Shown here: piece by piece, positions 3,721-58,468 of the stretch | Layout: each line of letters opens with the position of its first letter | Numbering within the stretch: the stretch's first letter is position 1 | Assembly (NCBI GenBank): GCA_018812485.1 | Contig: JAHJDO010000042.1 | Span: 9,512 to 73,511, forward strand | Length of the DNA: 64,000 bases | Direction: 5' to 3' | DNA from: a bacterium | GTDB lineage: Bacteria > JAHJDO01 | Notes under the pieces: model-generated | Database searches by the model: none | Seen by the model: only the letters and a program-made list of their open reading frames with translations | What the model was told of the DNA's origin: nothing | Made by a program: the position numbers and the translations under genes

Positions 3721-4707
3721 ATGAGTAAAGAAACAGATAGGAAATTCTGGAAGAATAAAAGAGTATTTGTTACAGGTGCAAACGGGTTTTTAGGCTCGTG
3801 GCTCACAAAAGCATTGGTTACATCCGGCGCAAGAGTAGTGGTTTTGATTAGAGATTGGATCCCTGGCTCAGTCCTGACAAATATGAAGAATGTTTATAAC
3901 AGTTTGGAAGCTGTTGTAAAAGGCGATCTTATAGATTACCAGCTTATAACTCGTATCTTTAATGAGCATAATATAGACTCATGCTTCCACATTGGAGCGC
4001 AGACAATAGTAGGAATTGCAAATAGGTCTCCTATTTCTACATTTGAATCCAATATAAGGGGCACATGGAATATTCTTGAGGCAGCAAGGAACATAGGGCT
4101 AGAGCGAATAGTTATAGCATCCAGTGATAAGGCTTATGGAGAGCAGCAGGATTTACCATACAAAGAGTCCTATTCGCTAAATGCACTCCATCCATATGAC
4201 GCATCAAAGGCATGTACTGACATACTCGCAAGAACTTATGCCTGCACATATGATATGCCGATTGTTGTAACAAGATGTGCTAATATTTACGGAGGCGGAG
4301 ATCTGAATTTCTCAAGAATTATCCCGGATACGATTAGATCTATTCTCCAGAATAAAAATCCCATTATCAGGAGTGATGGAACTCCGCTGAGAGATTATAT
4401 CTATATTGACGATGCAGTTAATGCGTATCTTATTGCTGCAGAAAAGGCTGATAAAAAGGGCATAAAAGGTGAAGCATTCAACTTTGGATCAAATAATCCG
4501 ATAAAAGTATTGGATTTAGTAAAGAAAATTATTGCAGTTTCCGGAAGCAAGTCTTTGAATCCTATTATAAAAGGCAAAGGTAAAAGCAAGGGAGAAATAA
4601 ACAACCAATACCTATCAAGCACCAAAGCAGAAAGGCTTCTAGGATGGAAACCAGTTTACAGTCTGGAAAAGGGAATTAGGGAAACTATTGAGTGGTACAA
4701 AAATTGA
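3721..4707 (+). CDS. NAD-dependent NDP-sugar 4,6-dehydratase of the extended SDR family, CDP-glucose 4,6-dehydratase-like
   Basis: FWKNKRVFVTGANGFLGSWL resembles the RfbG N-terminus, and the catalytic YDASKA (YxxxK) is present. The ORF track starts at 3709, but the ATG at 3721 is preceded by a GGGAGAAAG Shine-Dalgarno sequence, so I place the start there. Confidence 0.6.
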   Translation: MSKETDRKFWKNKRVFVTGANGFLGSWLTKALVTSGARVVVLIRDWIPGSVLTNMKNVYNSLEAVVKGDLIDYQLITRIFNEHNIDSCFHIGAQTIVGIANRSPISTFESNIRGTWNILEAARNIGLERIVIASSDKAYGEQQDLPYKESYSLNALHPYDASKACTDILARTYACTYDMPIVVTRCANIYGGGDLNFSRIIPDTIRSILQNKNPIIRSDGTPLRDYIYIDDAVNAYLIAAEKADKKGIKGEAFNFGSNNPIKVLDLVKKIIAVSGSKSLNPIIKGKGKSKGEINNQYLSSTKAERLLGWKPVYSLEKGIRETIEWYKN

Positions 4708-5723
4708 AAATACTAATAACTGGCGGCGCTGGATTTATTGGCTGTAATGCAGCAAAACGGTTTATGGATAAAGGGTATGAGGTAGTGGTTCTGGACAACC
4801 TGTCAAGAAAGGGTTCTAAGGAAAATTTTGAATGGCTTAAACAGCAGGGAAAATTTGAGTTCATAGATTGCGATATCAGGGATTATGCAAAGGTCAAGAA
4901 GATTTTCGCAGATAGAAATAGTATTGATGTGGTATTGCATCTTGCTGCGCAGGTAGCAGTTGCAACTTCTGTTCTAGAGCCAAGAGAAGATTTCCAGATA
5001 AATGTGCTTGGAACATTTAATCTTCTGGAAGCAGTAAGAGAAAATAAGCTTAATCCAATATTTATTTATGCTTCCACAAACAAGGTTTATGGAGGAATGA
5101 CTGACATAAAAGTGATTGAAAGAAATGGCAGATATGAATACGAATCTCTGCCAGAAGGAATCTCTGAGAATAGAATCTTAGACTTTCATTCTCCTTACGG
5201 CTGCTCAAAGGGCGCAGCTGATCAATATGTTAGAGATTATTCCAGAATATACAGACTAAGGACTGTTGTTATGCGACAGAGTTGTATTTATGGATACAGA
5301 CAATTTGGAGTAGAAGATCAAGGTTGGGTTGCATGGTTTACTATAGCTGCATCTCTGGATAAGCCAATTACGATTTATGGAGACGGGAAACAGGTTAGAG
5401 ATGTACTGTTTATTGATGATTTAGTTGATGCATATGAAAAAGCTATAGAGAATATAGAAGCTGCTTCCGGGAAAATCTATAACATAGGCGGTGGCCCTAA
5501 TAATAAGATGTCTTTGCTTGAACTTATTTCCTTTCTTGAGAGATTCTTGAATAAGAAAATAGAATACAGTTTCAGTGATTGGCGGCCCGGTGATCAACCT
5601 GTGTTTGTATCTAACATTGAGAAAGCAGGAAAAGAGCTTGCATGGCAGCCTAAAATAGATGTAGAAACTGGAGTAAAGAAACTGTCTGATTGGGTCAACG
5701 AGAATATGTCATTGTTCAGATAA
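4692..5723 (+). CDS. NAD-dependent NDP-sugar epimerase, CDP-paratose/tyvelose 2-epimerase-like
   Basis: The Rossmann motif ILITGGAGFIGCNAAKRF and the catalytic YGCSKGAAD (YxxxK) are present. At 343 aa its length and motifs resemble the Tyv/RfbE-type epimerases that pair with CDP-glucose dehydratases. Confidence 0.55.
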   Translation: MVQKLKILITGGAGFIGCNAAKRFMDKGYEVVVLDNLSRKGSKENFEWLKQQGKFEFIDCDIRDYAKVKKIFADRNSIDVVLHLAAQVAVATSVLEPREDFQINVLGTFNLLEAVRENKLNPIFIYASTNKVYGGMTDIKVIERNGRYEYESLPEGISENRILDFHSPYGCSKGAADQYVRDYSRIYRLRTVVMRQSCIYGYRQFGVEDQGWVAWFTIAASLDKPITIYGDGKQVRDVLFIDDLVDAYEKAIENIEAASGKIYNIGGGPNNKMSLLELISFLERFLNKKIEYSFSDWRPGDQPVFVSNIEKAGKELAWQPKIDVETGVKKLSDWVNENMSLFR

Positions 5724-5769
5724 TGGGAGAATAAGTGAACAAGGTGTTTCAACCCCTTGTTGTGGTGTT

Positions 5770-7014
5770 ATGTTAGCACTCATTAAAAAGGACTCTCTGT
5801 ATAAAAACAGCGCATTACTTTTTATTGCATCAATTGCAGGCAACTTCTTTCAATATCTTTTTCAATTCTTTATGGGAAGAAATCTCTCCGTCGCTGATTT
5901 TGGCGCTATGAATGCATTGCTTTCATTTACAGTAATAACTTCAATAGGAACAGGAACTGTTGCCTTGGTTATCACAAAGTATATTGCAGGGTTCAAAGGC
6001 AAAAGCGAAATAGGGAAAATAAAAGGGATTATTTTAAAGTCTTCCAAGTATATTATTCCGGCAGGAATTATCGTCTCTATTTTAATTTTTGCAGCCAGAT
6101 TCCAGATTATGGATTATTATAAGCTAGAACATACTTCTCCTGTAATAATAGTTAGTTTCTCACTTTTTGTCTCCGGTATTTTAAGTTTATTTTTTGCTGC
6201 AGCAACAGGGCTTCAAAAATTTAATTATATCGCTTTAGGTCAAATTTTAGGTCCTTTATCAAGGATTGGAAGCGGAGCTCTGCTTGTATGGCTGGGATTT
6301 GGATTGAATGGAGCAATTCTTGCTTCTGTAGTGGCTAGCATAACAGGGATTTTGATATTTAGTAAAGTAATAAGAGATATTGTAAAGGTAAAGATTGAAT
6401 CAGTAAAGAAATACAAGAAAGAAATGCTGTTTTTTTGTATCCCAGTGGCTATGTCGATTTCTTTTTACGCAGTATTGACAATGATTGACATGACACTTGT
6501 GAAGCACTATTTCTCTGCGAATATCGCAGGCCAATATGCAGCAATATCCGTGCTTGGAAAAAGCGTCCTGTATCTGCCCGGAGCGATAGTGTTAGTCATG
6601 TTCCCAATGGTGGCTGAAGCACATACAATCAATAAGGATACTCTATCAATCCTGAAAAAAGCACTTATATCTACGGCATTTCTCTGTCTGGCGGGCATAC
6701 TAATCTTTTTTTTATTCCCTGATTTTCTATTGAGATTGATTTCACGCGGCAGATATATTGGCAATGTAAATCTCCTATGGATTTTTGGACTTGCTATGCT
6801 TCCATATGCGCTGATAGGAGTGATTAACAGCTTTCATATAGCGAGACATAAGATTAGTTTTATTATTGCGCTTGTAATTATGACAATAGTTCAGGTTGGC
6901 TTAATTTGCATGTTTCACAAGTCATTAGAACAGGTTATATACATACTTTTAATATGCGGAGTACTGCTTATATTGATAAACTTCGGATTGATTTTTTATG
7001 AAAGAAAGAGCTGA
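5770..7014 (+). CDS. Polysaccharide biosynthesis protein / Wzx-like flippase of the MOP superfamily
   Basis: The 414-aa translation is very hydrophobic with at least 12 predicted transmembrane segments. Its topology and position next to glycosyltransferases are typical of O-unit flippases. Confidence 0.55.
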   Translation: MLALIKKDSLYKNSALLFIASIAGNFFQYLFQFFMGRNLSVADFGAMNALLSFTVITSIGTGTVALVITKYIAGFKGKSEIGKIKGIILKSSKYIIPAGIIVSILIFAARFQIMDYYKLEHTSPVIIVSFSLFVSGILSLFFAAATGLQKFNYIALGQILGPLSRIGSGALLVWLGFGLNGAILASVVASITGILIFSKVIRDIVKVKIESVKKYKKEMLFFCIPVAMSISFYAVLTMIDMTLVKHYFSANIAGQYAAISVLGKSVLYLPGAIVLVMFPMVAEAHTINKDTLSILKKALISTAFLCLAGILIFFLFPDFLLRLISRGRYIGNVNLLWIFGLAMLPYALIGVINSFHIARHKISFIIALVIMTIVQVGLICMFHKSLEQVIYILLICGVLLILINFGLIFYERKS

Positions 7015-7966
7015 TTCAAAATACCCTTTTGTCTCAATAATAGTAGCTGCAAAAGAGGTCTCTGAATATCTGTCAGAGTGTATAGAAAACTGTCTCAATC
7101 TTGACTATCCGGAATTCGAGATTATATTCCTGCCGGATAAAGAAGAGCGCCTAAGTTACAAAAATGTCTCCGTTATTCCTACAGGCGAGACGGGACCTGC
7201 AATGAAGAGAAATATGGGAGTTAAAGAAGCTAAAGGAGAAATTGTTGCATTCATAGATGATGATGTTTATCCTGAAAAGAGTTGGTTAAAAAATGCAGTT
7301 CGGAATTTCATTGACCCGGAAGTAGCGGCCGTTGGTGGGCCTGCTGTAACTCCTGATAAGGACGATGCCATGCAAAAAGCCAGCGGATTGGTATATTCAT
7401 CTAAACTTGTTAGCGGAGAATATAGTTATAGATATATCAAAGGAACAAGAAAAGAAGTAGAAGACTTTCCGTCATGTAATTTGATTGTAAGAAAAAGTGT
7501 TTTCGAAAAATTGGAAGGATTCAATACTAATTTCTGGCCTGGAGAGGATACCGTTTTATGTCTGGAGATAACAAAAAAATTAGGAAAGAAAATAATCTAT
7601 GAACCTGAAGCCCTAGTATATCACCATAGAAGACGTTTGTTTAAAGAACATCTTAAACAGATTGCGAACTATGCTAAACACAGAGGCTATTTTGTTAAAA
7701 GATTCCCGGAGACGTCTAAAAGGTTTTCCTATTTTGTTCCTTCATTGCTTGTTGCTGGAATAGTAACAGGTGCATTCTTTACAGGACTTTGTGTTTTCTT
7801 TAAAGCTATGTATTTTATTATACTTGGCATATATCTGATTTCAGTAGCATTTGAAACAGTAAAGTCCGGAAATCTTTTAGTATTTCCGGGAATTATCTCT
7901 ACGCATTTTGCCTACGGGATCTTTTTTATAAAAGGACTAGTTTCCAGAAGGCTGGAAGAAGAATGA
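6998..7966 (+). CDS. Family 2 glycosyltransferase with C-terminal transmembrane helices
   Basis: VSIIVAAKE...YPEFEIIFLPD and the DDD/DxD region FIDDDVYPE are GT-A hallmarks. The tail SLLVAGIVTGAFFTGLCVFF is membrane-spanning. Confidence 0.7.
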   Translation: MKERADSKYPFVSIIVAAKEVSEYLSECIENCLNLDYPEFEIIFLPDKEERLSYKNVSVIPTGETGPAMKRNMGVKEAKGEIVAFIDDDVYPEKSWLKNAVRNFIDPEVAAVGGPAVTPDKDDAMQKASGLVYSSKLVSGEYSYRYIKGTRKEVEDFPSCNLIVRKSVFEKLEGFNTNFWPGEDTVLCLEITKKLGKKIIYEPEALVYHHRRRLFKEHLKQIANYAKHRGYFVKRFPETSKRFSYFVPSLLVAGIVTGAFFTGLCVFFKAMYFIILGIYLISVAFETVKSGNLLVFPGIISTHFAYGIFFIKGLVSRRLEEE

Positions 7967-9420
7967 AAATAGTTATTGCATATCCGCCGCTTAGCCGCAA
8001 AGGAGATAAAAAATTGGTTCCACTTCTTTCCCAGAACAGACAGTTTCAATGGTTTCACAGTCCTACCTACATCTATCCCATTGTTCCTGCCTATGCGGCA
8101 ACCATGCTCAAGAATGCTGGATATGAGGTGATCTGGTATGACGGAATAGCCGAGAAAAAGACGTATAAAGAATTTCTAAATTTTGTTGCTGAAGAAAATC
8201 CGGATTTAATAATGATGGAGACGAAAACGCCAGTAGTCAAACAGCACTGGAAAATCATCAACGAACTCAAAACTCAAAATTCAAAACCCAAAACTGTCCT
8301 TGTCGGCGACCATGTGACTGCATTGCCTGAAGAAAGCATGGAGAAATGTAAAGTTGATTTTATTCTAACTGGTGGAGATTACGATTTCCTTCTCCTCAAT
8401 CTTTGCAAGGTTCTGGAAAAACTCACCACTGAACTGGAACCAGGCATCTGGTACAGGCATAACGATAAAATAAAAAATACGGGCAAGTTCAGGCTTGATC
8501 ATGATCTAAATACTCTTCCCTTTATTGACAGAGATCTAACAAAGTGGCAGTTATATGCATATAAGAACGGAAATTATAAACGAACACCCGGCACTTATAT
8601 AATGGCAGGAAGAGACTGCTGGTGGGGGAAGTGCAAGTTTTGTTCATGGACCACACTCTATCCGAATTTTAGAACAAGAAAGCCGGAGCATGTTCTGGAT
8701 GAGATAGGAATATTGATTGAGAAATATCACATAAAAGAGATTATGGATGATACAGGAACATTCCCTGCAGGAGAATGGCTAAAAGAGTTTTGCGAGGGAA
8801 TGATAGCGAGGGGATACAATAAAAAAATAAGATTTAACTGCAATATGAGATTTGGAACACTAAAGCAAAAAGATTATGATTTAATGGCGAAAGCCGGTTT
8901 CAGATTTATACTCTACGGCTTGGAATCTGCAAGACAGGAAACACTTGATAGGATACATAAAAACCTCAAGGTTCCAGAAATAACAGAAGGCGTAAGAATG
9001 GCTAAGCAAGCAGGACTGCATCCGCATCTTACAACAATGATAGGATATCCATGGGAAACCAAGGAAAATGCATTAAGGACAATTCAACTCGCAAAGGAGC
9101 TTTTTCGCAAGGGCTATGTAAATACACTGCAAGCAACAATAGTAATACCATATCCAGGAACGCCTCTTTTTGACGAATGCAAAAAAGGCAATCAGCTGAG
9201 AACTCTGGATTGGAACAGATATGACATGCAGGAACCTGTAATGGAGACACCCCTCACAGATGCTGATGTAAAACAATTTACGCAGGGACTTTACAAGTCT
9301 TTTATAACCCCAGGTTTTATATTCAGAACTATAACTTCTATAAGGGACTTTGATGATATAATTTTTATTTTACGTGCAGCAAAATCAGTTCTTGGGCATT
9401 TAACGGATTTTAGAAAATAA
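7963..9420 (+). CDS. B12-binding-domain radical SAM protein (class B-like) with a variant Cx4Cx2C cluster motif
   Basis: The N-terminus is a Rossmann-like cobalamin-binding region (IVIAYPP...DLIMMETKTP). The radical SAM core reads GRDCWWGKCKFCSW, which is C-x4-C-x2-C rather than the canonical C-x3-C-x2-C. Confidence 0.65.
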   Translation: MKIVIAYPPLSRKGDKKLVPLLSQNRQFQWFHSPTYIYPIVPAYAATMLKNAGYEVIWYDGIAEKKTYKEFLNFVAEENPDLIMMETKTPVVKQHWKIINELKTQNSKPKTVLVGDHVTALPEESMEKCKVDFILTGGDYDFLLLNLCKVLEKLTTELEPGIWYRHNDKIKNTGKFRLDHDLNTLPFIDRDLTKWQLYAYKNGNYKRTPGTYIMAGRDCWWGKCKFCSWTTLYPNFRTRKPEHVLDEIGILIEKYHIKEIMDDTGTFPAGEWLKEFCEGMIARGYNKKIRFNCNMRFGTLKQKDYDLMAKAGFRFILYGLESARQETLDRIHKNLKVPEITEGVRMAKQAGLHPHLTTMIGYPWETKENALRTIQLAKELFRKGYVNTLQATIVIPYPGTPLFDECKKGNQLRTLDWNRYDMQEPVMETPLTDADVKQFTQGLYKSFITPGFIFRTITSIRDFDDIIFILRAAKSVLGHLTDFRK

Positions 9421-10284: not shown

Positions 10285-10291
10285 AAAACTA

Positions 10292-11437: not shown

Positions 11438-11456
11438 TAGAAAGAAGCTGTGAGTA

Positions 11457-12212: not shown

Positions 12213-12220
12213 GACAAATT

Positions 12221-15092: not shown

Positions 15093-15126
15093 TATGAACA
15101 AAAATTAGTTTTTAAAATATAAAAGC

Positions 15127-16620: not shown

Positions 16621-16622
16621 AT

Positions 16623-17699: not shown

Positions 17700-17759
17700 G
17701 GAACAAATATAAAGTTTAATAGTGGATTAATGTTAAAAAATCAATAGAATATTGTTTAT

Positions 17760-18479: not shown

Positions 18480-18491
18480 AGAAAAAGGATT

Positions 18492-28256: not shown

Positions 28257-28258
28257 GT

Positions 28259-40015: not shown

Positions 40016-40016
40016 G

Positions 40017-40832: not shown

Positions 40833-40840
40833 TTGGCTGG

Positions 40841-41521: not shown

Positions 41522-41523
41522 CA

Positions 41524-44473: not shown

Positions 44474-44477
44474 AACA

Positions 44478-46031: not shown

Positions 46032-46059
46032 GAATGTTAGCTTATAAGAAAGGGCTGAG

Positions 46060-48611: not shown

Positions 48612-48630
48612 ATTATAAAAGATTTTACAT

Positions 48631-51640: not shown

Positions 51641-51690
51641 GTAGATTTACTGGCACTTATGTTCAGTAGAATTAAAGATGTGAGAGTGAT

Positions 51691-53199
51691 ATGAAAAGTT
51701 CAACAGATGTTTTATTTATAAATCCCGGTAATCATAAAAAAACATATCAAGGTTTATCAAAAGAATTCACAGCAATTGCTCCACCTGTCTGGACATCTTT
51801 ATTAGCTAATTATATCCGCAAGGAGGGGTACAGCGCTGCAATTTATGATGTAAATGTTGAAGGCTGGGATAATGGCAAAGTGAAAGAGATAATAGCCGGA
51901 TATAATCCTAATTTAGTTGTTATGATGGTTTATGGTCATCATCCGTCTGCTTCTACGCAAACAATACCGTCTGCAGGCCAAATAGCAAGAGACATAAAAA
52001 TATATAACAGGGATATTCCGGTTGCAATGGGAGGAACGCACCCTTCTGCTTTACCTGAAAGGACGCTTGGAGAAGAAGATATTGATTTTGTGATACAGGG
52101 AGAAGGAGTATATACAATAAAAGGATTAGCAGACTGGACAAAAGGGAAGAGAGATATTAAGAAGATAAAGGGATTATGGTGCAAAAATGGGAACCTAACA
52201 TCTTTCACAACACCGCCACCTGTTGTTGAAAACTTGGATGATGAGCTGGATAATTATGCATGGGATTTGTTACCTGAAATAAATAATTACAGAGCCCATA
52301 ATTGGCACTGTTTTCAAGAATTTGAAAAAAGCAGGCAGGATGATTTTTTAGATGTCAGAACGCCTTATATCGCAATGAACACATCTTTGGGATGTCCCTA
52401 CTCATGTAACTATTGCTGCATAAATGCGATATTTGGGAAACCTCGCATAAGATACTGGTCGTTAGATAGGGTTTTTTTATGGATTGATACACTTGTCAAC
52501 AGATATAAAGTAAAGAGCATAAGATTTGATGATGAACTTCTTATATTATCTTCTAAAAGAATGGAGAGATTTTGTGATATGCTCATTGAAAGAAGTTACG
52601 ACTTGAATCTTTTTGCGTATGGGAGAGTTGATACTATTCAGGAGAAACTTCTCGGGAAATTGAAAAAGGCAGGAGTGAATTGGATATGCCTTGGAATAGA
52701 ATCTGCAAATGAAAAGGTGAGAGCAGGGGTAAACAAAAAGATAAAAAAAGATATAAAAGAAGTGGTTAGAATGATACAGAGTAATAATATAAATGTTCTC
52801 GGCAATTATATGTTTGGTTTGCCTGATGACAATCTGGAAACAATGGAAGAAACACTTCAACTGGCGATGGAATTAAATTGCGAATTTGCCAATTTCTATA
52901 GCGTAATGGCTTATCCAGGTTCAGCATTGTATGAATGGGCATCTAATAAGAACGGTTATTTACCAAAATCATGGGGAGCATTTTCTCAGCACAGTTATGA
53001 AACTCAACCTTTGCCTACCAAATATCTCCCAGCGAAAGACGTATTAAAGTTCAGAGATGAAGCATATTTAAGATACTTTGAAAATCCAAGGTATTTGAAA
53101 CATGCAAAAGATAAGTTTGGACAAAAAGTAGAATCTCATATACAAAAGATGACGCAAATAAAATTAAAAAGAAAATTATTGGAGGAGAATTTATGTTAA
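51691..53199 (+). CDS. B12-binding-domain radical SAM protein (class B-like)
   Basis: The N-terminal B12-like domain (VLFINPGNH...LVVMMVYGHH) precedes TSLGCPYSCNYCCINA. Confidence 0.75.
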   Translation: MKSSTDVLFINPGNHKKTYQGLSKEFTAIAPPVWTSLLANYIRKEGYSAAIYDVNVEGWDNGKVKEIIAGYNPNLVVMMVYGHHPSASTQTIPSAGQIARDIKIYNRDIPVAMGGTHPSALPERTLGEEDIDFVIQGEGVYTIKGLADWTKGKRDIKKIKGLWCKNGNLTSFTTPPPVVENLDDELDNYAWDLLPEINNYRAHNWHCFQEFEKSRQDDFLDVRTPYIAMNTSLGCPYSCNYCCINAIFGKPRIRYWSLDRVFLWIDTLVNRYKVKSIRFDDELLILSSKRMERFCDMLIERSYDLNLFAYGRVDTIQEKLLGKLKKAGVNWICLGIESANEKVRAGVNKKIKKDIKEVVRMIQSNNINVLGNYMFGLPDDNLETMEETLQLAMELNCEFANFYSVMAYPGSALYEWASNKNGYLPKSWGAFSQHSYETQPLPTKYLPAKDVLKFRDEAYLRYFENPRYLKHAKDKFGQKVESHIQKMTQIKLKRKLLEENLC

Positions 53200-54023
53200 A
53201 AGATTTTAGAAAATTGGAAGATAAAGCCCATTACATCTGCAATCAAGTTTTGGATATGTGTATTAAGGCGGGTACTGGACATGTTACATCTTCACTTTCG
53301 TGCGCAGAAATTCTTGTAGCGCTTTATTATGGAGGAATACTTAATTATGATGCTTCTAATCCTGAGTGGTGTGATCGGGATAGATTTGTCCTGAGCAAGG
53401 GACAAGCAAGTCCTATTTTGTATACAATATTGGCTGATGTCGGGTTTTTCCCAAAAACTAAACTGGCTAAGTTTGGCCAGGCAAATGGTGCTGTTGGAGT
53501 TCATATGCAGTGCGATGTTGCCGGAGTAGAAATTACTGCTGGTTCCCTGGGTCATGGTTTAGGGATTGGGGCAGGTATGGCACTTGCGGCAAGAATGGAT
53601 AGAAAGCATTATCTGACTTTTGTTCTTTTGGGAGATGGAGAATGCCATGAAGGCTCAATATGGGAGTCTGCCATGTTTGCAGGTCATCACCAACTAAATA
53701 ATTTAATTACCATAGTTGACAGAAATTGGCTTTGCGCTACGGACTTTACAGAAAATTGCGTTCGTCTCGATCCTATGGATGAAAAATGGAAAGCATTTGG
53801 TTTTGAGGTAGTTAGTATTAATGGGCATAGTTTTCAGGAAATCTTTAGTGCTCTTGATGGATTTCGTTCAAGGAGACTCCATAAGCCATTAATGATTATT
53901 GCAAACACGGTGAAAGGTAAGGGAATAAGTTTTATGGAAGATCAACCGTTATGGCATTCTGTAGCTCCCAAAGGCAAAGACGCTAAAAGAGCAAAAATTG
54001 AGTTAAGTAAAAGAGGAGAGTAA
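53193..54023 (+). CDS. Transketolase N-terminal (TPP-binding) subunit of a split transketolase
   Basis: GHVTSSLSCAEILVALYY is the histidine TPP-binding block, and LLGDGECHEGSIWES is the GDG-x-x-EG diphosphate-binding motif. Confidence 0.8.
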   Translation: MLKDFRKLEDKAHYICNQVLDMCIKAGTGHVTSSLSCAEILVALYYGGILNYDASNPEWCDRDRFVLSKGQASPILYTILADVGFFPKTKLAKFGQANGAVGVHMQCDVAGVEITAGSLGHGLGIGAGMALAARMDRKHYLTFVLLGDGECHEGSIWESAMFAGHHQLNNLITIVDRNWLCATDFTENCVRLDPMDEKWKAFGFEVVSINGHSFQEIFSALDGFRSRRLHKPLMIIANTVKGKGISFMEDQPLWHSVAPKGKDAKRAKIELSKRGE

Positions 54024-54027
54024 AAAA

Positions 54028-54963
54028 ATGGCAAGTATTACGATGAGGGATGCATTTTTTAATAAATTATATGAAATTGCTAAGAATGATAGAAATGTTA
54101 TTGTTGTTAGTGCTGATATGGGAGCTCCAAGTCTTGATAAGTTTAGAAGGGACTTACCTTCTCAATTTATCAATGTTGGTATAGCTGAACAAAATATGGT
54201 GACTGTTGCGACAGGTTTAGCTCTAACTGGCAAAAATGTTTATACTTACGCCATCATGCCGTTTGCTTCATTGCGATGTTATGAATTTATAAAAGTTGAT
54301 TTTTCTCTTATGAATATTGGTGTGACCACTATAGGTGTTGGTTCAGGCTTTGGTTATCCTGATTCAGGACCTACCCATCATTCTACAGAGGATATCTCTG
54401 CTTTGCGTGCGCTTCCAAATATGACGATACTAAATTCGTCTAGTAACCGGATGGTAGAAAAGTTTACGGAGATATCATATAACATGTCAACTCCATGCTA
54501 CATCAGGTTAGATAGAGGATTAGTGCCTGAAGTTTATGATAAAAGCGAAAATTTCTCCAATGGATTAGCAATGCTTAAAACAGGCAAAGACCTGTATATA
54601 ATTGCAACCGGGAATATGGTTGATCAAGCATTTAAAGTTGTTAAAAAGCTATCAGAACATTCTATAGATGCAGGGATTATCGATTTATATAGAATAAAGC
54701 CTATTAATACAAAATTACTCATAAAATACATAAAAAACGCGCATCGAATAGTAACATTGGAAGAACATTTTCTTGCTGGGGGAATGGGGTCTGCTGTTGT
54801 GGAAAATTTAACTGACAATGGGATAAGTATTCCAATTAAACGTATTGGGGTTCCGGATAAATATTATTATGCTTATGGCAATAGAGATGACATAAATCTT
54901 GAGTGTGGATTGGATACAGAGACTGTTGCTAAAATAATTTTAAAATGGGTAAAAAAGATCTAA
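54028..54963 (+). CDS. Transketolase C-terminal (pyrimidine-binding) subunit of a split transketolase
   Basis: INVGIAEQNMVTVATGLAL and GSGFGYPDSGPTHH are present. At 311 aa it is typical of the split TK-C subunit. Confidence 0.8.
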   Translation: MASITMRDAFFNKLYEIAKNDRNVIVVSADMGAPSLDKFRRDLPSQFINVGIAEQNMVTVATGLALTGKNVYTYAIMPFASLRCYEFIKVDFSLMNIGVTTIGVGSGFGYPDSGPTHHSTEDISALRALPNMTILNSSSNRMVEKFTEISYNMSTPCYIRLDRGLVPEVYDKSENFSNGLAMLKTGKDLYIIATGNMVDQAFKVVKKLSEHSIDAGIIDLYRIKPINTKLLIKYIKNAHRIVTLEEHFLAGGMGSAVVENLTDNGISIPIKRIGVPDKYYYAYGNRDDINLECGLDTETVAKIILKWVKKI

Positions 54964-54987
54964 CTAGGTAAACAAACTGACAAAATA

Positions 54988-55980
54988 ATGATTATTAGCA
55001 GAACTCCATTTCGAATCTCTTTTTTTGGAGGTGGAACTGATTATCCTGTCTGGTATAGAGAGAATAGCGGAGCAGTTCTTTCAACAACTATAGATAAATA
55101 TTGTTATATAACTTGTCGGCGACTCCCTCCTTTCTTTGAATACAAGCACAGAATTGTCTATTCAAAGTACGAACATGTTAACGAAATAGATGAAATTGTG
55201 CACCCTGCCGTTAGAGAGGCATTTAGATTTATGGATATTAAGGATGGATTAGAGATACATCATGACGGGGACCTCCCCGCGCGATCCGGTCTAGGATCGA
55301 GTTCGTCTTTTACTGTAGGGTTATTGCATGCTCTATATGCTTTAAAAGGGGAAATGGTTACAAAAAAACGCTTGTCTCTTGAAGCTATTCATATTGAGCA
55401 GGAGATGATAAAAGAAAATGTAGGTTCACAAGACCAGGTGAGTGTAGCGTTTGGAGGCCTAAATAAGATTGAATTTTCCGGTAATCATGATATTGAAGTC
55501 AGACCCATAACTATAAGAGAGCCGAGGTTGCAGGAATTGCAGGATTGTTTAATGCTATTTTTTACTGGTTTTACAAGGATAGCTTCAGATGTAGCAGGAG
55601 ATAAAATATCTCAAATCCCAAATAAAAAGAAGGAACTTAATATATTGCATGATATGGTTAATAACGCTATAGATATCTTAAATGGAAACTATGACCTTGT
55701 TGAATTTGGCAAATTGCTTGATGAAAGCTGGAAAATTAAGAAAAGTTTGTCTAGTAAAGTATCAAACAGGAACATAGACAATATTTATGAGAGCGCAATT
55801 AAGGCTGGTGCAACTGGTGGGAAGATTTTAGGCGCTGGTAGTGGGGGCTTTATTTTGTTTTTTGTGAGGCCTGAGAAAAGAGATAGAGTAAAGAAAGCAT
55901 TAAGTCCTTTATTGCACGTGCCTTTTCGTTTTGATAAAACAGGAAGCCAGATTATTTATTATAGTGAAAGCGGAGTGTAA
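54988..55980 (+). CDS. GHMP-family sugar kinase, HddA-like (D-glycero-D-manno-heptose 7-phosphate kinase / fucokinase type)
   Basis: SRTPFRISFFGGGTDYP is the N-terminal signature of HddA-type kinases, and GLGSSSSFTVGLLHAL is the GHMP ATP-binding motif. Confidence 0.7.
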   Translation: MIISRTPFRISFFGGGTDYPVWYRENSGAVLSTTIDKYCYITCRRLPPFFEYKHRIVYSKYEHVNEIDEIVHPAVREAFRFMDIKDGLEIHHDGDLPARSGLGSSSSFTVGLLHALYALKGEMVTKKRLSLEAIHIEQEMIKENVGSQDQVSVAFGGLNKIEFSGNHDIEVRPITIREPRLQELQDCLMLFFTGFTRIASDVAGDKISQIPNKKKELNILHDMVNNAIDILNGNYDLVEFGKLLDESWKIKKSLSSKVSNRNIDNIYESAIKAGATGGKILGAGSGGFILFFVRPEKRDRVKKALSPLLHVPFRFDKTGSQIIYYSESGV

Positions 55981-55983
55981 TAA

Positions 55984-57183
55984 GTGAAAATTCCTTTTGG
56001 AACAATTTCTATAACGAAAAAATCCAGAGAATTAATAAAAGAAATTCTCAAATCAAATAGATTATCCAGTGGGAAGCACGTAAGAGAATTCGAAAAAAAA
56101 TTCGCAAAACTTATAGGCACAAAAGAAGCGATTGCGGTTAGCAGTGGAACTGATGCTCTTGTGTTAGCATTGGCAGTGTTATATGAATTTGGCGCAAGAC
56201 GGGGAGACGAGATCATAGTTCCAGCCCTATCGTTTGTAGCAACAGGCAATGCTGTGTTGCATGCTGGGTTTACTCCTGTTTTTGTGGATATTAATAAAAA
56301 AACTTTAAATATTGACTGTTCTAAGATTGAAGGCGTTATTACAAAAAAGACCAAAGCGATTTTGCCTGTTCATTTAATGGGGAAGCCTGCAGATATGGAT
56401 ACCATAAATAGTATTGCAAAAAAACACAATCTCTATGTAATTGAAGATGCAGCAGAGGCGCACGGAGCAGTCTATAAGAACAAAAATATAGGCACTATAG
56501 GGGATATGGCTGCATATAGTCTTTATGTTGCGCACATAATCAGTACTGTAGAAGGAGGCATTATTACTACAGATAATCAGAACTTTGCTGAAACAATAAG
56601 GTCATTAAGAAGTCATGGGAGAGCATGTAAGTGTGAAAGCTGTGTGCTTAATACTGCATCTGCTTATTGTCCAAAGAGGTTTAAGTATAAAGATAATGCA
56701 GATATTAGATTTATATTTGAACGAGTCGGTTTTTCATCTAAGATGAATGAGATGGAGGCAGCAATAGGGATCGGGAACCTGGATATATATAATGATATTC
56801 TTAGCAGAAGAAGAGAAAATCTTTATTATCTTATAAAAAAATTCAAAAATTTTGAACCCTATATGGCAACAATAGAAAAGGAATCTTATGAGGAGATAGG
56901 GCCACACGCTTTTCCCATGATTATTCAAGAGGGTGTAAAATTTACCCGTAATCAGCTTGTAACTTTTCTAGAAAAAAATGAGATTGATACAAGAAGCTTG
57001 TTCTCTTCTATGCCCACGCAATGTCTTGGCTTTAAATTCTTGGGTTATAAAGAAGGAGATTTTCCAAATGCTGAGTACATAGGAGAACATGGGATTCATA
57101 TAGGAGTCCATCAGGATTTAGATAAAGAGAAATGCGATTACATTATTAATACAATAGGAAAATTTTTATCAAAAAATGGCTAG
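55984..57183 (+). CDS. DegT/DnrJ/EryC1 fold PMP/PLP-dependent sugar 3-dehydratase (ColD/E1-like), with His in place of the usual internal-aldimine Lys
   Basis: GDEIIVPALSFVATGNAV and especially SLYVAHIISTVEGGIITTD align with ColD SFYSHHIATMEGGCIVTDD. Aminotransferases of this fold carry Lys where this protein has His. The start is a GTG at 55984. Confidence 0.55.
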   Translation: MKIPFGTISITKKSRELIKEILKSNRLSSGKHVREFEKKFAKLIGTKEAIAVSSGTDALVLALAVLYEFGARRGDEIIVPALSFVATGNAVLHAGFTPVFVDINKKTLNIDCSKIEGVITKKTKAILPVHLMGKPADMDTINSIAKKHNLYVIEDAAEAHGAVYKNKNIGTIGDMAAYSLYVAHIISTVEGGIITTDNQNFAETIRSLRSHGRACKCESCVLNTASAYCPKRFKYKDNADIRFIFERVGFSSKMNEMEAAIGIGNLDIYNDILSRRRENLYYLIKKFKNFEPYMATIEKESYEEIGPHAFPMIIQEGVKFTRNQLVTFLEKNEIDTRSLFSSMPTQCLGFKFLGYKEGDFPNAEYIGEHGIHIGVHQDLDKEKCDYIINTIGKFLSKNG

Positions 57184-57748
57184 GACGTCTAAAAAAGTAC
57201 AACCATGGCAACTATTGTCTACTAAAGAGTTGTTTGCAGTTTCTCCCTGGATTAAAGTTTATGAAGATACGATAAAACTTCCCAGTGGGAGAATCGTTGA
57301 GGATTATTATCGGATTGCACTTCCTGAATATGCAATGATTTATGCTCAGAGAAAGGATGGAAAGGTTCTCTTTGAACGACAATATAAACATGGTCTTGGG
57401 AAAATAACACTTGTTTTGCCAGCAGGAGCTCTGGAAAAAGGGGAAAGGGCTATTGAAACTGCAAAAAGAGAACTGCTTGAAGAAACAGGTTACCAGGCAG
57501 GTAGATGGAAATATGTTGGGTCATTTTTAGTGAATGGAAATAAAGGATGCGGAAGAGCTCACTTTTTTATTGCAAAAGAACTAGAAAAGATTTCTGAGCC
57601 GGTAATTGATGATATGGAGGAACCTGAAATTGTGTTTATTTCTGAGCATTCTATCATGAAGGCAATATTTAACGGTGAAATTTCTACTCTTGCTACTGCG
57701 TCTTTAGTAGCAATTGCAACAAACCCCGCTATATCCCAAATCTATTAG
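57176..57748 (+). CDS. NUDIX hydrolase (likely an NDP-sugar pyrophosphatase)
   Basis: The Nudix box is GALEKGERAIETAKRELLEETGY (GX5EX7REUXEEXGU). Confidence 0.7.
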   Translation: MARTSKKVQPWQLLSTKELFAVSPWIKVYEDTIKLPSGRIVEDYYRIALPEYAMIYAQRKDGKVLFERQYKHGLGKITLVLPAGALEKGERAIETAKRELLEETGYQAGRWKYVGSFLVNGNKGCGRAHFFIAKELEKISEPVIDDMEEPEIVFISEHSIMKAIFNGEISTLATASLVAIATNPAISQIY

Positions 57749-57766
57749 ATAAATAAAGATAGAATA

Positions 57767-58468
57767 ATGAAAGCTATTATTTTGGCAGGCGGATTTGGTT
57801 TGCGTTTACGTGGAACCGTTAAGAATTTACCAAAACCAATGGCTCCGATAACCGGAAGACCTTTCCTTGAATACTTAGTATTACAGCTTAAAAAATGGGG
57901 AATTAACGAAATAATACTTGGGGTAGGATATCTAAAAGGAAAAATTAAATCTTATTTCGGTAATGGCAAACAGTGGGATGTGCATATTATATATTCTGAG
58001 GAAAATAAGCCCTTAGGAACAGGGGGAGCTATCAAGAAGGCGGTTGAATTAATAGATGATGATGAGTTTTTGGTAATGAATGGAGATTCTTTTCTTGATT
58101 TGGATTTCAATCGGATTATTAGTTTTCATCGGAAACAAAAAGCAGTAGCTACTATAGGTATAACCTGTGTTGATGATTTAAGCCGTTATGGTAAGGTAGA
58201 AATTAATAGTAAAAACGAGGTAATTAAGTTTGTTGAAAAAGATTCTGATGTGGGCAGATTTATTAATGGAGGAGTGTACGTCTTCACTCGTAAGATTATT
58301 AATTGCATTCCTATGGGTAAAGTTTCTTTGGAACATGATGTTTTACCTGCCCTTATCAATCAAGGATTATATGGTATGATAACAAAAGGGTTCTTCGTAG
58401 ATATAGGCGTGCCTCAGGATTTCTTTGACCTATGCAAAAATCCCGAAAAGTTATTGAATGCTGTATGA
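57767..58468 (+). CDS. Sugar-1-phosphate nucleotidyltransferase, HddC-like (heptose/mannose-1-phosphate guanylyltransferase type)
   Basis: MKAIILAGGFGLRLRGTVKNLPKPMAPITGRPFLEYLVLQLKKWGINEIILGVGY closely parallels the HddC/GmhD N-terminus. It is a short (233 aa) single-domain nucleotidyltransferase. Confidence 0.7.
   Translation: MKAIILAGGFGLRLRGTVKNLPKPMAPITGRPFLEYLVLQLKKWGINEIILGVGYLKGKIKSYFGNGKQWDVHIIYSEENKPLGTGGAIKKAVELIDDDEFLVMNGDSFLDLDFNRIISFHRKQKAVATIGITCVDDLSRYGKVEINSKNEVIKFVEKDSDVGRFINGGVYVFTRKIINCIPMGKVSLEHDVLPALINQGLYGMITKGFFVDIGVPQDFFDLCKNPEKLLNAV

What the first reader, a model, noticed from the sequence alone, without database searches (positions are those of the whole stretch)
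3721..58468. A ~55-kb co-directional glycan locus with 12 radical SAM enzymes, six of them B12-binding
One strand-consistent locus carries six class-B (cobalamin-binding domain) and six SPASM/twitch radical SAM genes. Alongside them are roughly nine glycosyltransferases (GT2 x4 including fusions, GT4 x3, GT9, GT-C/YfhO-like), seven class I methyltransferases, a flippase and NDP-sugar tailoring enzymes. I am not aware of a described polysaccharide locus with this density of radical SAM tailoring. It implies extensive anaerobic, radical-based modification of sugars or a glycoconjugate, such as C-methylation, epimerisation or oxidation at unactivated carbons. This is the strongest candidate here for a previously undescribed system.
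Basis: partly seen in the sequence, partly recalled or inferred. Interest (0 to 1): 0.85.

Follow-up and report, generated by a model that had tools for sequence, protein, structure and literature searches.

The report
Modular radical-SAM-rich surface glycan locus
An uncultured anaerobic bacterium carries a sugar-coat gene cluster of at least 60 kb in which a quarter of the genes are uncharacterised radical SAM enzymes, and seven of them sit in a roughly 17-kb stretch whose core genes recur, with no known product, in unrelated bacteria.

Summary
Pfam finds 12 radical SAM (rSAM) genes on one strand between 7963 and 53199. Six have an N-terminal B12-binding domain. Six are SPASM/twitch type, one of them fused to a GT2 glycosyltransferase. 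They sit among about 11 glycosyltransferases, 5-6 methyltransferase domains, a Wzx flippase and sugar-nucleotide enzymes. None of the 12 reaches any curated NCBIfam cutoff.

The interpretation needs revising in three ways.
- The locus is a mosaic, not a 12-gene unit. Relatives share a 5' module (3709-9420, 77-95% aa identity in two relatives) and a 3' sugar-nucleotide module (50708-58468, 89-98% in one contig). The middle differs between them.
- Seven of the 12 rSAMs lie in a 29136-46869 stretch. Its core recurs at 33-94% identity in up to five other contigs, two of them named Spirochaetales and Uhrbacteria. The core is an NPP-type phosphodiesterase (fused to a methyltransferase in the window and Uhrbacteria), class-B and twitch rSAMs, two TIGR04076 proteins and an SDR. 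It usually comes with purine enzymes (PNP+PRTase+NicX-like, or PurH-like) and often a GT9.
- The density is not unprecedented. Brachyspira plasmid pBHWA1 has 7 rSAM genes in 13 kb of rfb and glycosyltransferase genes.

The chemistry remains unknown. The best reading is a hypervariable surface-glycan locus with radical tailoring modules. I found no description of the cassette.

The parts
2973..3542 (-). Divergent XRE-HTH + cupin regulator upstream of the locus
   Evidence: NCBIfam PuuR-like HTH/cupin hits. An HTH_3 + Cupin_2 gene sits at the same position upstream of the conserved 5' module in relatives L091/L092.
3709..9420 (+). Conserved 5' module: CDP/dTDP-hexose 4,6-dehydratase-like SDR (3709), second SDR (4692), Wzx-type flippase (5770), GT2 with two C-terminal TM helices (6998), class-B rSAM with CX4CX2C (7963)
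   Evidence: Pfam, NCBIfam, TM scan. 86-95% aa identity in GCA_043824255.1 and 77-90% in L091/L092.
9451..29155 (+). Variable glycosyltransferase/methyltransferase region. Contents: GT2 (9451), GT4 (10292), MT (11457, 12221), rSAM-SPASM (12790), GT4 (13890), MT-GT2 fusion (15127), rSAM twitch (16623), MT (17760), GT-C PMT_2 (18492), 1162-aa YfhO GT-C (20252), GT9 (23712), GT2-TM-rSAM fusion (24946), GFO/IDH/MocA oxidoreductase (27159), unknown 298 aa (28259).
   Evidence: Pfam. In the relative most of these genes are 45% identical or less, or absent. The fusion family was characterised.
24946..26988 (+). GT2 - transmembrane helical region - radical SAM (twitch/SPASM-like) fusion protein
   Evidence: Pfam GT2 110.7 bits and rSAM 61.5 bits. 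About 28 full-length homologue clusters at 27-63% identity. Invariant residues are DxD, CX3CX2C, C589, C607, C645, C647 and C651. AF2 gives pLDDT 89 and pTM 0.81, and the GT-A part is nearest to the membrane mannosyltransferase PcManGT and to TarS.
29136..46869 (+). Central stretch with 7 rSAMs. Contents: TM-anchored NPP-type phosphodiesterase + MT fusion (29136), class-B rSAMs (31472, 32994, 34423), twitch rSAM (35933), double-TIGR04076 protein (36978), TIGR04076-like protein (37648), SDR (38124), rSAM-SPASM (38954), purine nucleoside phosphorylase (40017), APRT-like PRTase (40841), NicX/M29-like protein (41524), rSAM-SPASM (42465), HpnA-like SDR (43508), class-B rSAM (44478), MT (46060). Only seven of these are shown to recur elsewhere as a core (29136, 31472, 35933, 36978, 37648, 38124, 38954), plus the PNP/PRTase/NicX trio in one contig. 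The outer bounds of the cassette are my estimate.
   Evidence: Pfam and NCBIfam.
- Orthologues of 29136, 31472, 35933, 36978, 37648 and 38124 occur at 33-76% identity in L094/L098 (Spirochaetales MAG), L096 (Uhrbacteria) and L097. L095 has four of these six.
- 38954 has 66-74% orthologues in L094 and L096.
- In the close relative REL, 31472 is 94% identical. The four other core members 35933, 36978, 37648 and 38954 match only at 29-32%.
- The PNP/PRTase/NicX trio is 58-65% identical in L094.
46866..49770 (+). Unknown 9-TM membrane protein (46866; candidate polymerase or GT-C, unproven) and GT4 (48631)
   Evidence: No Pfam or NCBIfam hit for 46866. Nine hydrophobic segments. GT4 by Pfam. The GT4 is 57% identical in L093.
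49785..58468 (+). 3' sugar-nucleotide cassette: GDP-L-fucose-synthase-like SDR (49785), SDR (50708), class-B rSAM (51691), split transketolase N/C (53193, 54028), HddA-like GHMP sugar kinase (54988), DegT/RfbH-like PLP enzyme (55984), NUDIX (57176), HddC/ManC-like nucleotidyltransferase (57767)
   Evidence: Pfam and NCBIfam. In contig L093, 50708-57767 are 89-98% identical and 49785 is 60%, in the same order, with no NUDIX gene called between the DegT and nucleotidyltransferase genes.
58493..64000 (+). Co-directional continuation beyond the finding: 707-aa secreted/anchored unknown protein (58493), two 76%-identical membrane paralogues (60627, 61637), and a second YfhO-type GT-C that runs off the window end (62747->)
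   Evidence: No family hits for 58493, 60627 or 61637. Paralogy. YfhO scores 39.7 bits against a gathering score of 28.5.

Best explanation
This is a single-strand, modular, hypervariable locus of at least 60 kb. It most likely builds a cell-surface glycoconjugate in an uncultured anaerobic bacterium, and radical SAM enzymes are a major part of its tailoring toolkit.

Shown:
1. The flanking modules are conserved among close relatives and the interior is swapped. The 5' module is NDP-hexose dehydratases, Wzx, a membrane GT2 and a class-B rSAM. The 3' module is an NDP-sugar cassette that contains another class-B rSAM.
2. Seven rSAMs sit in a central stretch whose core recurs across phyla. The core is an NPP-type phosphodiesterase, class-B rSAMs, MoaA/BlsE-like twitch rSAMs, two TIGR04076 proteins and an SDR. 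It usually comes with a purine module and often with a GT9.
3. One rSAM is physically fused to a membrane GT2.

Inferred mechanism:
1. Cytoplasmic NDP-sugars, or nucleoside-linked sugars, are made by the SDR, PLP, kinase and nucleotidyltransferase enzymes.
2. They are radically modified at unactivated carbons. Twitch enzymes would do BtrN/BlsE/AprD4-type oxidation, decarboxylation, deoxygenation or epimerisation. Class-B enzymes would do C-methylation or HpnJ/OxsB-type ring rearrangement.
3. GT2, GT4 and GT9 enzymes assemble the sugars on a polyprenyl-phosphate carrier.
4. Wzx flips the product, and the GT-C enzymes (PMT_2, YfhO x2) elaborate it outside the membrane from polyprenyl-P-sugar donors made by the TM-anchored GT2s.
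5. The PNP + APRT-like pair either recycles purine from the large 5'-deoxyadenosine/SAH output of about 18 SAM-consuming enzymes, or releases and recycles the base of a nucleoside-bound intermediate.

The swapping of modules between relatives would then generate surface-antigen diversity, as in O-antigen and capsule loci.
For: -
- The genes are tightly packed and co-directional.
- The mosaic pattern is shown by a conserved 5' module, a conserved 3' module and a divergent interior.
- The GT2-rSAM fusion family sits in glycan contexts with Wzy, WecG, Bac_transf, YfhO and PMT_2.
- The cassette core is conserved in L094/L098, L095, L096 and L097 and partly in REL. GT9, an ABC exporter, DegT and GT neighbours flank it in several loci.
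- The nearest solved structures are the sugar/nucleoside-modifying rSAMs AprD4, OxsB, BlsE and BtrN, plus MoaA.
- TM-anchored GT2s of GtrB/ArnC-like architecture occur together with GT-C proteins.
- Other multi-rSAM glycan loci exist: pBHWA1, pDCAR1, a Bacteroidales MAG with a Wzt ATPase, and others.
Against: - No initiating phosphoglycosyltransferase, recognisable Wzy, chain-length regulator or outer-membrane exporter is present in the window. The pathway type and the acceptor are therefore unknown.
- No substrate of any rSAM is known, and all family scores are far below curated cutoffs.
- In the Spirochaetales contig the only glycosyltransferase seen within 10 kb of the cassette is a GT9. 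The cassette could therefore make something that is not a polysaccharide component.
- The similarities to solved structures are remote (E of 1e-24 at best).
- Cobalamin supply could not be checked.
Confidence: 0.6

Rival explanations
1. The central stretch (29136-46869) is a self-contained pathway for a modified purine nucleoside/nucleotide or a nucleoside-derived sugar. It would follow one of two logics. In the first, as with HpnH/HpnG or MqnE/MqnB, an rSAM adds a 5'-deoxyadenosyl unit to an acceptor, PNP removes the base, and the PRTase recycles it. In the second, as with OxsB or BlsE, the rSAMs tailor the sugar while it is still attached to a base. The cassette would be a mobile unit that has merely inserted into, or feeds, the glycan locus, perhaps through the GT9, whose characterised relatives use ADP-heptose.
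For: - A purine module is present in five of six cassette loci. PNP+PRTase+NicX occurs in the window and L094. A PurH-like AICARFT_IMPCHas gene occurs in REL, L095 and L096.
- 40017 passes the curated cutoff for purine nucleoside phosphorylase (287 vs 218), and 40841 is just under the APRT subfamily cutoff (132.8 vs 143).
- The twitch rSAMs are nearest to the nucleotide-using enzymes MoaA, BlsE and viperin.
- Class-B 34423 hits AprD4 and OxsB.
- A GT9 lies near the cassette in four of six loci.
- Core genes are 40-76% identical between the window and the Spirochaetales and Uhrbacteria versions, which implies horizontal spread as a unit.
Against: - The purine genes could simply salvage 5'-deoxyadenosine and SAH by-products.
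- L097 shows no purine module in the 20 kb fetched.
- HpnH, HpnG and HpnJ equivalog cutoffs are not met.
- 40017 is of the inosine/guanosine PNP type, not the HpnG/MqnB nucleosidase type.
- No product is known.
Confidence: 0.2
2. Part of the locus modifies a membrane lipid and not a glycan. Candidates are a hopanoid-like, ladderane-like or membrane-spanning lipid, or a lipid A/core-type glycolipid. Class-B and twitch rSAMs would act on acyl or isoprenoid chains or on a glycolipid head group.
For: - The best NCBIfam hits of the class-B enzymes include HpnJ (233 bits for 34423), the TIGR04072 lipid-biosynthesis B12/rSAM protein and HpnR.
- The twitch enzymes hit HpnH and the tetraether synthase Tes.
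- 43508 is HpnA-like at 151 bits.
- 29136 has the architecture of EptA-type lipid A phosphotransferases, with about five N-terminal TM helices and an AlkP-superfamily domain.
- An LPG_synthase_TM gene lies next to the cassette in L095.
Against: - Every one of these scores is far below the curated cutoff (for example 233 vs 577.6).
- The window has no squalene-hopene cyclase and no fatty-acid, polyketide or isoprenoid synthase.
- The surrounding genes are overwhelmingly sugar-nucleotide and glycosyltransferase genes.
Confidence: 0.1
3. Some SPASM/twitch rSAMs are protein or peptide maturases. They could mature the AlkP-superfamily enzyme as anSME matures sulfatases, or modify the Cys-rich TIGR04076 proteins as RiPP-like substrates.
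For: - SPASM domains are typical of peptide and protein maturases.
- The best NCBIfam hits include StsB, PapB and PqqE, and the best solved-structure hit of 38954 is SkfB.
- The TIGR04076 proteins are always adjacent to twitch rSAMs, and the double-TIGR04076 protein carries 7 invariant Cys and 2 invariant His.
- An AlkP-superfamily gene is part of the cassette core.
Against: - 29136 has no C/S-x-P/A-x-R formylglycine motif. It has an NPP-type Thr-containing motif.
- The TIGR04076 proteins are 160-215 aa and are predicted to fold (pLDDT 81.6), with conservation spread along the whole length. That looks like an enzyme, a carrier or a metal-binding partner and not a leader-core peptide.
- No small precursor ORFs were noted.
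Confidence: 0.08

Closest known systems
Wzx-dependent O-antigen / capsule biosynthesis loci (hypervariable surface polysaccharide gene clusters)
   Same: A long co-directional cluster. It contains NDP-sugar enzymes, many GT2/GT4 enzymes, a MOP-family flippase and methyltransferases. Conserved flanking modules enclose a swapped interior among close relatives.
   Different: No recognisable Wzy, Wzz or initiating phosphoglycosyltransferase in the window. There are three or more GT-C proteins. A quarter of the genes are radical SAM enzymes, which are not part of the classical toolkit.
Brachyspira hyodysenteriae plasmid pBHWA1 (NC_012226.1) rfb/glycosyltransferase cluster
   Same: A glycan (LOS/glycosylation) gene set in an anaerobe, with 7 rSAM/SPASM genes packed among rfbA-D/F, epimerases and glycosyltransferases. 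It is uncharacterised biochemically and varies between strains.
   Different: The plasmid lists no protein annotated as B12-binding and no genes annotated as TIGR04076, NPP or PNP. Its rSAMs are only about 27% identical to those in the window. It is about 36 kb in total and plasmid-borne.
Hopanoid side-chain pathway (HpnH adenosylhopane synthase, HpnG nucleosidase/phosphorylase, HpnA, HpnI GT2, HpnJ class-B rSAM ring contraction)
   Same: The same combination of enzyme types: twitch-like rSAM, a PNP_UDP_1 family enzyme, an HpnA-like SDR, GT2s and HpnJ-like class-B rSAMs. HpnJ is proposed to act on a glucosamine ring (PMC9204698).
   Different: All scores are far below the equivalog cutoffs. 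There is no hopene cyclase. The PNP is of the inosine/guanosine phosphorylase type. This is an analogy of logic, not membership.
Sugar- and nucleoside-tailoring radical SAM enzymes of antibiotic pathways (AprD4, BtrN, BlsE, OxsB, GenK/Fom3/MoeK5)
   Same: These are the nearest solved or characterised relatives by sequence. They show that class-B and twitch rSAMs can deoxygenate, oxidise, decarboxylate, ring-contract or C-methylate sugars.
   Different: E-values of 1e-9 to 1e-24 over partial lengths. The context here is a cell-surface glycan locus with a flippase and GT-C enzymes, not an aminoglycoside or nucleoside antibiotic cluster.

Membership tests
Radical SAM superfamily | PF04055 core with a three-Cys motif (CX3CX2C or a variant) for the SAM-binding [4Fe-4S] cluster | tested here: met
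   All 12 proteins score above the Pfam gathering score (58-88 bits vs 29.5). Eleven have CX3CX2C and one has a conserved CX4CX2C.
Class B (cobalamin-dependent) radical SAM | N-terminal Rossmann-like B12-binding domain (PF02310) fused to the rSAM core | tested here: met
   Six proteins have PF02310 at 50.5-71 bits (gathering score 32.1) N-terminal to PF04055.
Class B (cobalamin-dependent) radical SAM | Actual cobalamin binding and use (methyl transfer or rearrangement) | not testable with these tools
   None of the six has a DxHxxG motif. AprD4, the closest solved relative of 34423 and the second closest of 51691, is from my own recollection not cobalamin-dependent.
SPASM/twitch radical SAM | C-terminal Cys-rich auxiliary Fe-S domain (PF13186 or a truncated twitch) | tested here: inconclusive
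   Above the gathering score in 12790 (51.7), 35933 (24.2), 38954 (36.6) and 42465 (32.2). 16623 scores 20.4 against 21.5. The 24946 fusion has no hit itself but has five invariant C-terminal Cys, and several homologues carry PF13186 hits.
Characterised rSAM equivalogs (HpnJ, BchE, HpnH, BzaD, PhpK, anSME, PqqE, MoaA, BlsE, AprD4, Tes and others) | NCBIfam curated whole-protein cutoff | tested here: not met
   Best cases: HpnJ 233 vs 577.6 (34423), BchE 192.7 vs 481 (44478), PqqE 102 vs 381 (38954), MoaA 89.7 vs 284 (35933).
Wzx/Wzy-dependent polysaccharide pathway | MOP-family flippase | tested here: met
   5770-7014 hits PF01943 at 47.7 bits (gathering score 28.2) and has 9 or more hydrophobic segments.
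Wzx/Wzy-dependent polysaccharide pathway | Wzy polymerase, initiating phosphoglycosyltransferase (WbaP/WecA) and chain-length regulator | tested here: not met
   No PF04932, PF02397, PF00953 or Wzz hits among the 50 ORFs. The unknown 9-TM protein 46866 could be a divergent polymerase, which was not resolved. The missing genes may also lie outside the window.
GT9 (heptosyltransferase family) | PF01075 domain; equivalog-level match to LPS heptosyltransferase I/II/III | tested here: inconclusive
   PF01075 scores 85.9 bits (gathering score 22), but heptosyltransferase II scores 96 against a cutoff of 134.6. It is a family member whose donor and acceptor are unknown.
TIGR04076 family | NCBIfam TIGR04076 cutoff (33 bits) | tested here: met
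   36978 scores 60.6 bits in two repeats. 37648 scores 32.4 bits, which is borderline. The function of the family is unknown. The only two papers found mention the name four times and once respectively, and I did not read them.
Anaerobic sulfatase-maturing enzyme / sulfatase pair | C/S-x-P/A-x-R formylglycine motif in the AlkP-superfamily partner | tested here: not met
   29136 has no such motif. The anSME model scores 34 against 349 for 42465.
Purine nucleoside phosphorylase (inosine/guanosine type) | NCBIfam NF006054 / TIGR01697 cutoffs | tested here: met
   40017 scores 287.3 vs 218 and 254 vs 197.1.

The most novel reading that the evidence does not exclude
The 29136-46869 stretch contains an undescribed, horizontally mobile biosynthetic pathway found from Patescibacteria to Spirochaetota. 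In it, up to seven radical SAM enzymes, two TIGR04076 proteins, an SDR and an NPP-type phosphodiesterase would remodel the sugar of a purine nucleoside, nucleotide or NDP-sugar. The remodelling could be ring contraction or carbocycle formation, C-methylation, deoxygenation, or 5'-deoxyadenosyl-derived chain extension. A PNP/PRTase module, or a PurH-like enzyme, would cycle the purine 'handle', and a GT9 would install the product on the cell surface. The result would be a new class of radically rebuilt sugars in environmental anaerobes.
Probability: 0.2. Interest if true: 0.9.

Novelty: new variant of a known kind. Interest (0 to 1): 0.68.

Why it matters
Radical SAM chemistry on carbohydrates is known almost entirely from antibiotic pathways such as BtrN, AprD4, GenK, BlsE and OxsB. 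Its role in building the cell surfaces of anaerobes is essentially unstudied, even though such genes appear in glycan loci from Brachyspira to candidate phyla.

This locus offers three concrete entry points:
- A GT2-rSAM fusion family that ties a radical enzyme to a glycosyl-transfer step.
- A compact sugar-nucleotide cassette with an embedded class-B rSAM, conserved at about 90% or more in a second contig.
- A seven-rSAM stretch whose core recurs across phyla with purine-handling genes and two proteins of unknown fold. It is small enough to synthesise and express.

Solving any of these would assign function to large uncharacterised rSAM subfamilies. It could also reveal new sugar structures that act as antigens, phage receptors or biomarkers in anoxic environments.

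Tried and rejected
- NCBIfam on all 12 rSAMs gave no equivalog assignment.
NCBI names the source only as 'bacterium'. A marker from a relative gave ambiguous phylum signals.
- anSME-type maturation of the AlkP enzyme was rejected because there is no formylglycine motif.
- A Rfam scan found no B12, SAM or other riboswitch in the window.
- Promoter and terminator consensus scans of 1-6000 were not above shuffled expectation for promoters.
- Foldseek of the whole fusion model was dominated by the GT-A domain, so it gave no information on the rSAM half.
- PDB sequence searches for 36978, 41524 and 28259 found nothing meaningful.
- Literature searches found no biochemical study of rSAM-rich polysaccharide loci and nothing titled or abstracted on TIGR04076 function.
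- The metagenome scan with the TIGR04076 alignment returned only 8 loci, most already seen.
- Pfam at E up to 1 gave no useful hit for 28259, 36978, 37648, 41524, 46866, 58493, 60627 or 61637.

Full report
**1. What is there**

The window carries 50 complete co-directional + strand ORFs from 3709 to 62746. A further + strand ORF starts at 62747 and runs off the window end. Only six intergenic gaps exceed 40 bp, and the largest is 170 bp at 26988-27159.

Pfam scans of every ORF confirm twelve radical SAM (rSAM) proteins.
- Six have an N-terminal B12-binding domain (class B): 7963, 31472, 32994, 34423, 44478 and 51691.
- Six lack it and are of the SPASM/twitch type: 12790, 16623, 24946, 35933, 38954 and 42465.
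- The SPASM model is above its gathering score in four of these. It is marginally below in 16623.
- It is absent in the 24946 fusion. That protein nevertheless has five invariant C-terminal cysteines, and several of its homologues carry PF13186 hits.
- Eleven proteins have CX3CX2C. The 7963 protein has CX4CX2C, identical in all 15 members of its 90% cluster.
- The twelve are 21-33% identical to each other, so they are ancient paralogues.

- Glycosyltransferases: GT2 x4 (two fusions), GT4 x3 and GT9 x1.
- GT-C proteins: at least three, namely PMT_2, a 1162-aa YfhO, and a second YfhO at the window edge.
- Methyltransferase domains: five clear ones plus one weak one.
- Also present: a Wzx-type flippase, five extended SDRs, a classical SDR, a GFO/IDH/MocA oxidoreductase, a DegT/RfbH-like PLP enzyme, a GHMP sugar kinase, a nucleotidyltransferase and a split transketolase.

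Twelve rSAMs in 47 genes is far beyond chance. The binomial P is about 1e-10 at an assumed 2% background.

**2. None of the rSAMs is a known enzyme**

Against NCBIfam, no rSAM reaches any curated cutoff.
- Best scores are HpnJ 233 vs 577.6 and BchE 193 vs 481 for class B.
- For the others they are PqqE 102 vs 381 and MoaA 90 vs 284.
- Four of the six class-B proteins score best against HpnJ or BchE. A review of this enzyme class describes both as non-methylases. It also notes that low identity makes function prediction unreliable (PMC9204698). C-methylation should therefore not be assumed.
- The nearest solved structures are sugar- or nucleoside-modifying rSAMs, at remote E-values. They are AprD4, OxsB and TokK for 34423, AprD4 for 51691, and MoaA, BlsE, viperin, SkfB and BtrN for the twitch enzymes.

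**3. Source and relatives: a mosaic, not a unit**

The window matches an NCBI MAG labelled only 'bacterium' (proteins MBU0477556-598, 78-kb contig) and a Logan assembly of SRR2544004. It is not among the GTDB species representatives.

A marker gene from a close relative has its best named hits in Sumerlaeota (68-70%) and in Ratteibacteria/Omnitrophica (66%). The phylum is unresolved. An upstream prepilin/H-X9-DG-like gene is the only other hint.

Three sets of relatives show that the locus is modular.
- GCA_043824255.1 (L086+L087, merged as REL) shares 3709-9420 at 86-95% and 9451 at 74%. It also keeps 13890 (76%), 31472 (94%) and 38124 (59%). Otherwise it has different genes, including its own set of 10 rSAMs (8 class B) in the 40 kb fetched.
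- L091/L092 share the upstream regulator and the first five genes at 77-90%. They then continue with ten non-rSAM sugar genes.
- L093 shares the 3' cassette in the same order. 50708-57767 are 89-98% identical and 49785 is 60%. It is preceded by a different mix of GT4s and class-B rSAMs.

Conserved ends with a swapped interior are the signature of a hypervariable surface-polysaccharide locus. The glycan context does not.

**4. The GT2-rSAM fusion**

ORF 24946 fuses a GT2 domain, a hydrophobic helical region (residues 242-280) and an rSAM domain.
- It defines a rare family of about 28 clusters at 27-63% identity among 5.8 billion proteins.
- GTDB representatives hold eight full-length matches, named as Woesearchaeota, Planctomycetia, Parcubacteria, Thermoanaerobaculaceae, Vicingus, Poseidoniia, Nanoarchaeia and one unclassified bacterium.
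- DxD, CX3CX2C and five C-terminal Cys are invariant.
- AF2 gives a confident model (pLDDT 89, pTM 0.81). Its GT-A half is closest to the membrane mannosyltransferase PcManGT and to TarS/TarP.
- In bacterial contigs the fusion lies in glycan loci with Wzy, WecG, Bac_transf, YfhO, PMT_2 and further class-B rSAMs. In one nanoarchaeal MAG it sits among housekeeping genes.
- This fusion is the most direct evidence here that an rSAM works on a glycosyl intermediate.

**5. The central stretch, the main new result**

The 215-aa protein 36978 is a double TIGR04076 protein (60.6 bits vs 33). Protein 37648 is a borderline single one. Homologues of 36978 form a tight family of 23 clusters at 47-69% identity, with seven invariant Cys and two invariant His. 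Their neighbourhoods are strikingly similar.

- **Spirochaetales MAG contig (L094/L098):** GT9 | rSAM | class-B rSAM | NPP phosphodiesterase | PNP | PRTase | NicX-like | rSAM | rSAM | TIGR04076a | TIGR04076b | SDR | rSAM-SPASM | rSAM | MT | amidohydrolase | class-B rSAM. That is 7 rSAMs in 16.6 kb.
- **Uhrbacteria (L096):** rSAM | NPP-MT fusion (same architecture as 29136) | class-B | PurH-like | class-B | rSAM | rSAM | TIGR04076a | TIGR04076b | SDR | rSAM-SPASM | rSAM | DUF6798 | ABC exporter | GFO | acetyltransferase | DegT | GT.
- **L095, L097 and REL** are variants of the same arrangement.

Orthology to the window genes was assigned by best non-overlapping tblastn hit.

| Window gene | Product | Identity in other loci |
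|---|---|---|
| 29136 | NPP-type phosphodiesterase (+/- MT) | 45-58% |
| 31472 | class-B rSAM | 51-94% |
| 35933 | twitch rSAM | 59-76% (32% in REL) |
| 36978 | double TIGR04076 | 49-61% (29% in REL) |
| 37648 | TIGR04076-like | 39-51% (32% in REL) |
| 38124 | SDR | 33-59% |
| 38954 | rSAM-SPASM | 66-74% (L094 and L096) |
| 40017, 40841, 41524 | PNP, PRTase, NicX-like | 58-65% (L094 only) |

- Seven of the window's twelve rSAMs lie in this 29136-46869 stretch.
- The identity levels between lineages named as different phyla imply horizontal transfer of the core as a unit.
- A purine module is present in five of six loci. It is either PNP+PRTase+NicX-like or a PurH-like AICARFT/IMP-cyclohydrolase homologue.
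- A GT9 lies near the cassette in four of six loci.
- 40017 passes the curated purine-nucleoside-phosphorylase cutoff. 40841 falls just short of an APRT subfamily cutoff.
- I found no paper describing this cassette.

**6. Precedents for rSAM-dense glycan loci**

- The B. hyodysenteriae plasmid pBHWA1 has seven rSAM/SPASM genes within about 13 kb of rfbA-D/F, epimerase and glycosyltransferase genes. A block of these genes correlates with virulence (PMC4267127; annotation).
- Solidesulfovibrio carbinolicus pDCAR1 has four rSAMs among glycosyltransferase, heptose and nonulosonate genes.
- A Bacteroidales MAG contig has five rSAMs in ten genes, next to a Wzt O-antigen ABC ATPase.
- Loci with 4-5 rSAMs per 20 kb occur in Woesearchaeota, Omnitrophica, Bacteriovoracaceae, Clostridia and unclassified MAGs.
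- Density in the window is one rSAM per 4.6 kb, which is lower than in several of these.
- What is unusual here is the absolute number in one locus and the combination of modules. None of these loci has been characterised biochemically in the literature I could search.

**7. Most likely mechanism**

Confidence is about 0.6, and the steps are marked as shown or inferred.
- *Shown:* the domain content, the modular architecture, the fusion protein and the cross-phylum recurrence of the cassette core.
- *Inferred:* NDP-sugars come from the two sugar-nucleotide modules. These supply 4,6-dehydratase-like SDRs, a Fcl-like reductase, an RfbH/PseC-like PLP enzyme, a HddA-like kinase, a HddC/ManC-like nucleotidyltransferase and a split transketolase.
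- *Inferred:* the rSAMs then tailor these sugars at unactivated carbons.
- *Inferred:* GT2, GT4 and GT9 enzymes assemble them on a polyprenyl-phosphate carrier, and Wzx flips the product.
- *Inferred:* the GT-C enzymes decorate it further, using polyprenyl-P-sugars made by the TM-anchored GT2s (6998, and possibly the fusion).
- *Inferred:* the central cassette probably delivers one special residue.
- *Inferred:* its purine enzymes either salvage the 5'-deoxyadenosine and SAH produced by about 18 SAM-using enzymes, or handle a nucleoside-bound intermediate.

Rivals are listed separately with their tests: a free nucleoside or natural product, a lipid modification, and protein or peptide maturation.

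**8. Verdict**

- 'Glycan locus with extensive radical tailoring' is the best-supported reading. The locus is a mosaic of exchangeable modules and not a conserved 12-rSAM system.
- rSAM-dense glycan clusters already exist in sequenced anaerobes.
- I classify it as a new variant of a known kind.
- The recurring TIGR04076/rSAM/NPP/purine cassette is the piece most likely to be truly new biochemistry.

Noticed in passing
window 7963-9420 (+): The class-B rSAM of the conserved 5' module has a CX4CX2C motif (CWWGKCKFC) in place of CX3CX2C. The motif is identical in all 15 members of its 90%-identity cluster.
   Followed up: partly
window 60627-61577 and 61637-62746 (+): Two tandem paralogues are 76% identical. 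They are multi-TM proteins with no Pfam or NCBIfam hit and look like a recent duplication at the 3' end of the locus.
   Followed up: no
window 62747-64000 (+): A second YfhO-type GT-C (39.7 bits) runs off the window end, so the co-directional locus is longer than the finding states.
   Followed up: partly
window 3-2156 (-) and 2213-2917 (-): A secreted protein of at least 718 aa with Laminin_G_3, CBM9-like and GH123_N-like segments runs off the window start. Next to it is a prepilin-type N-terminal methylation protein with an H-X9-DG-like C-terminus (16.8 bits vs 19).
   Followed up: partly
L003 8631-10739 / L004 5942-8050 (Nanoarchaeota MAG): A 46%-identical GT2-rSAM fusion lies among archaeal housekeeping genes, between a Tyw1-like rSAM (Wyosine_form) and deoxyhypusine synthase, and not in a glycan locus.
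   Followed up: no
window 53193-54963; L031 5684-8940; L045 7308-12053; L082 6710-10843; L016 1561-3249: A split transketolase N/C pair recurs next to rSAM genes in glycan-type loci of MAGs labelled Omnitrophica, Thermoanaerobaculaceae, Clostridia and unclassified. It may form a two-carbon branching or ketose-forming step coupled to radical chemistry.
   Followed up: partly
window 40017-42468; L094 3403-5835; L087 16149-17666; L095 11220-12734; L096 4835-6385: Two purine modules alternate within the same conserved cassette. One is PNP + APRT-like PRTase + NicX/M29-like. The other is a PurH-like AICARFT_IMPCHas protein.
   Followed up: partly
[not shown]
   Followed up: partly
window 29136-31475 (+): A 779-aa fusion of about five N-terminal TM helices, an NPP-type AlkP-superfamily domain and a class I methyltransferase. 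The same fusion (769 aa, 58% identity) occurs in Uhrbacteria (L096). The membrane topology of the methyltransferase domain is puzzling.
   Followed up: partly
window 28259-29155 (+): A 298-aa protein has no Pfam, NCBIfam or PDB sequence hit and is absent from all the relatives examined.
   Followed up: partly
whole window: The window has no tRNA gene and no Rfam family at gathering threshold. In particular there is no cobalamin or SAM riboswitch, despite six B12-domain enzymes and about 18 SAM users.
   Followed up: yes
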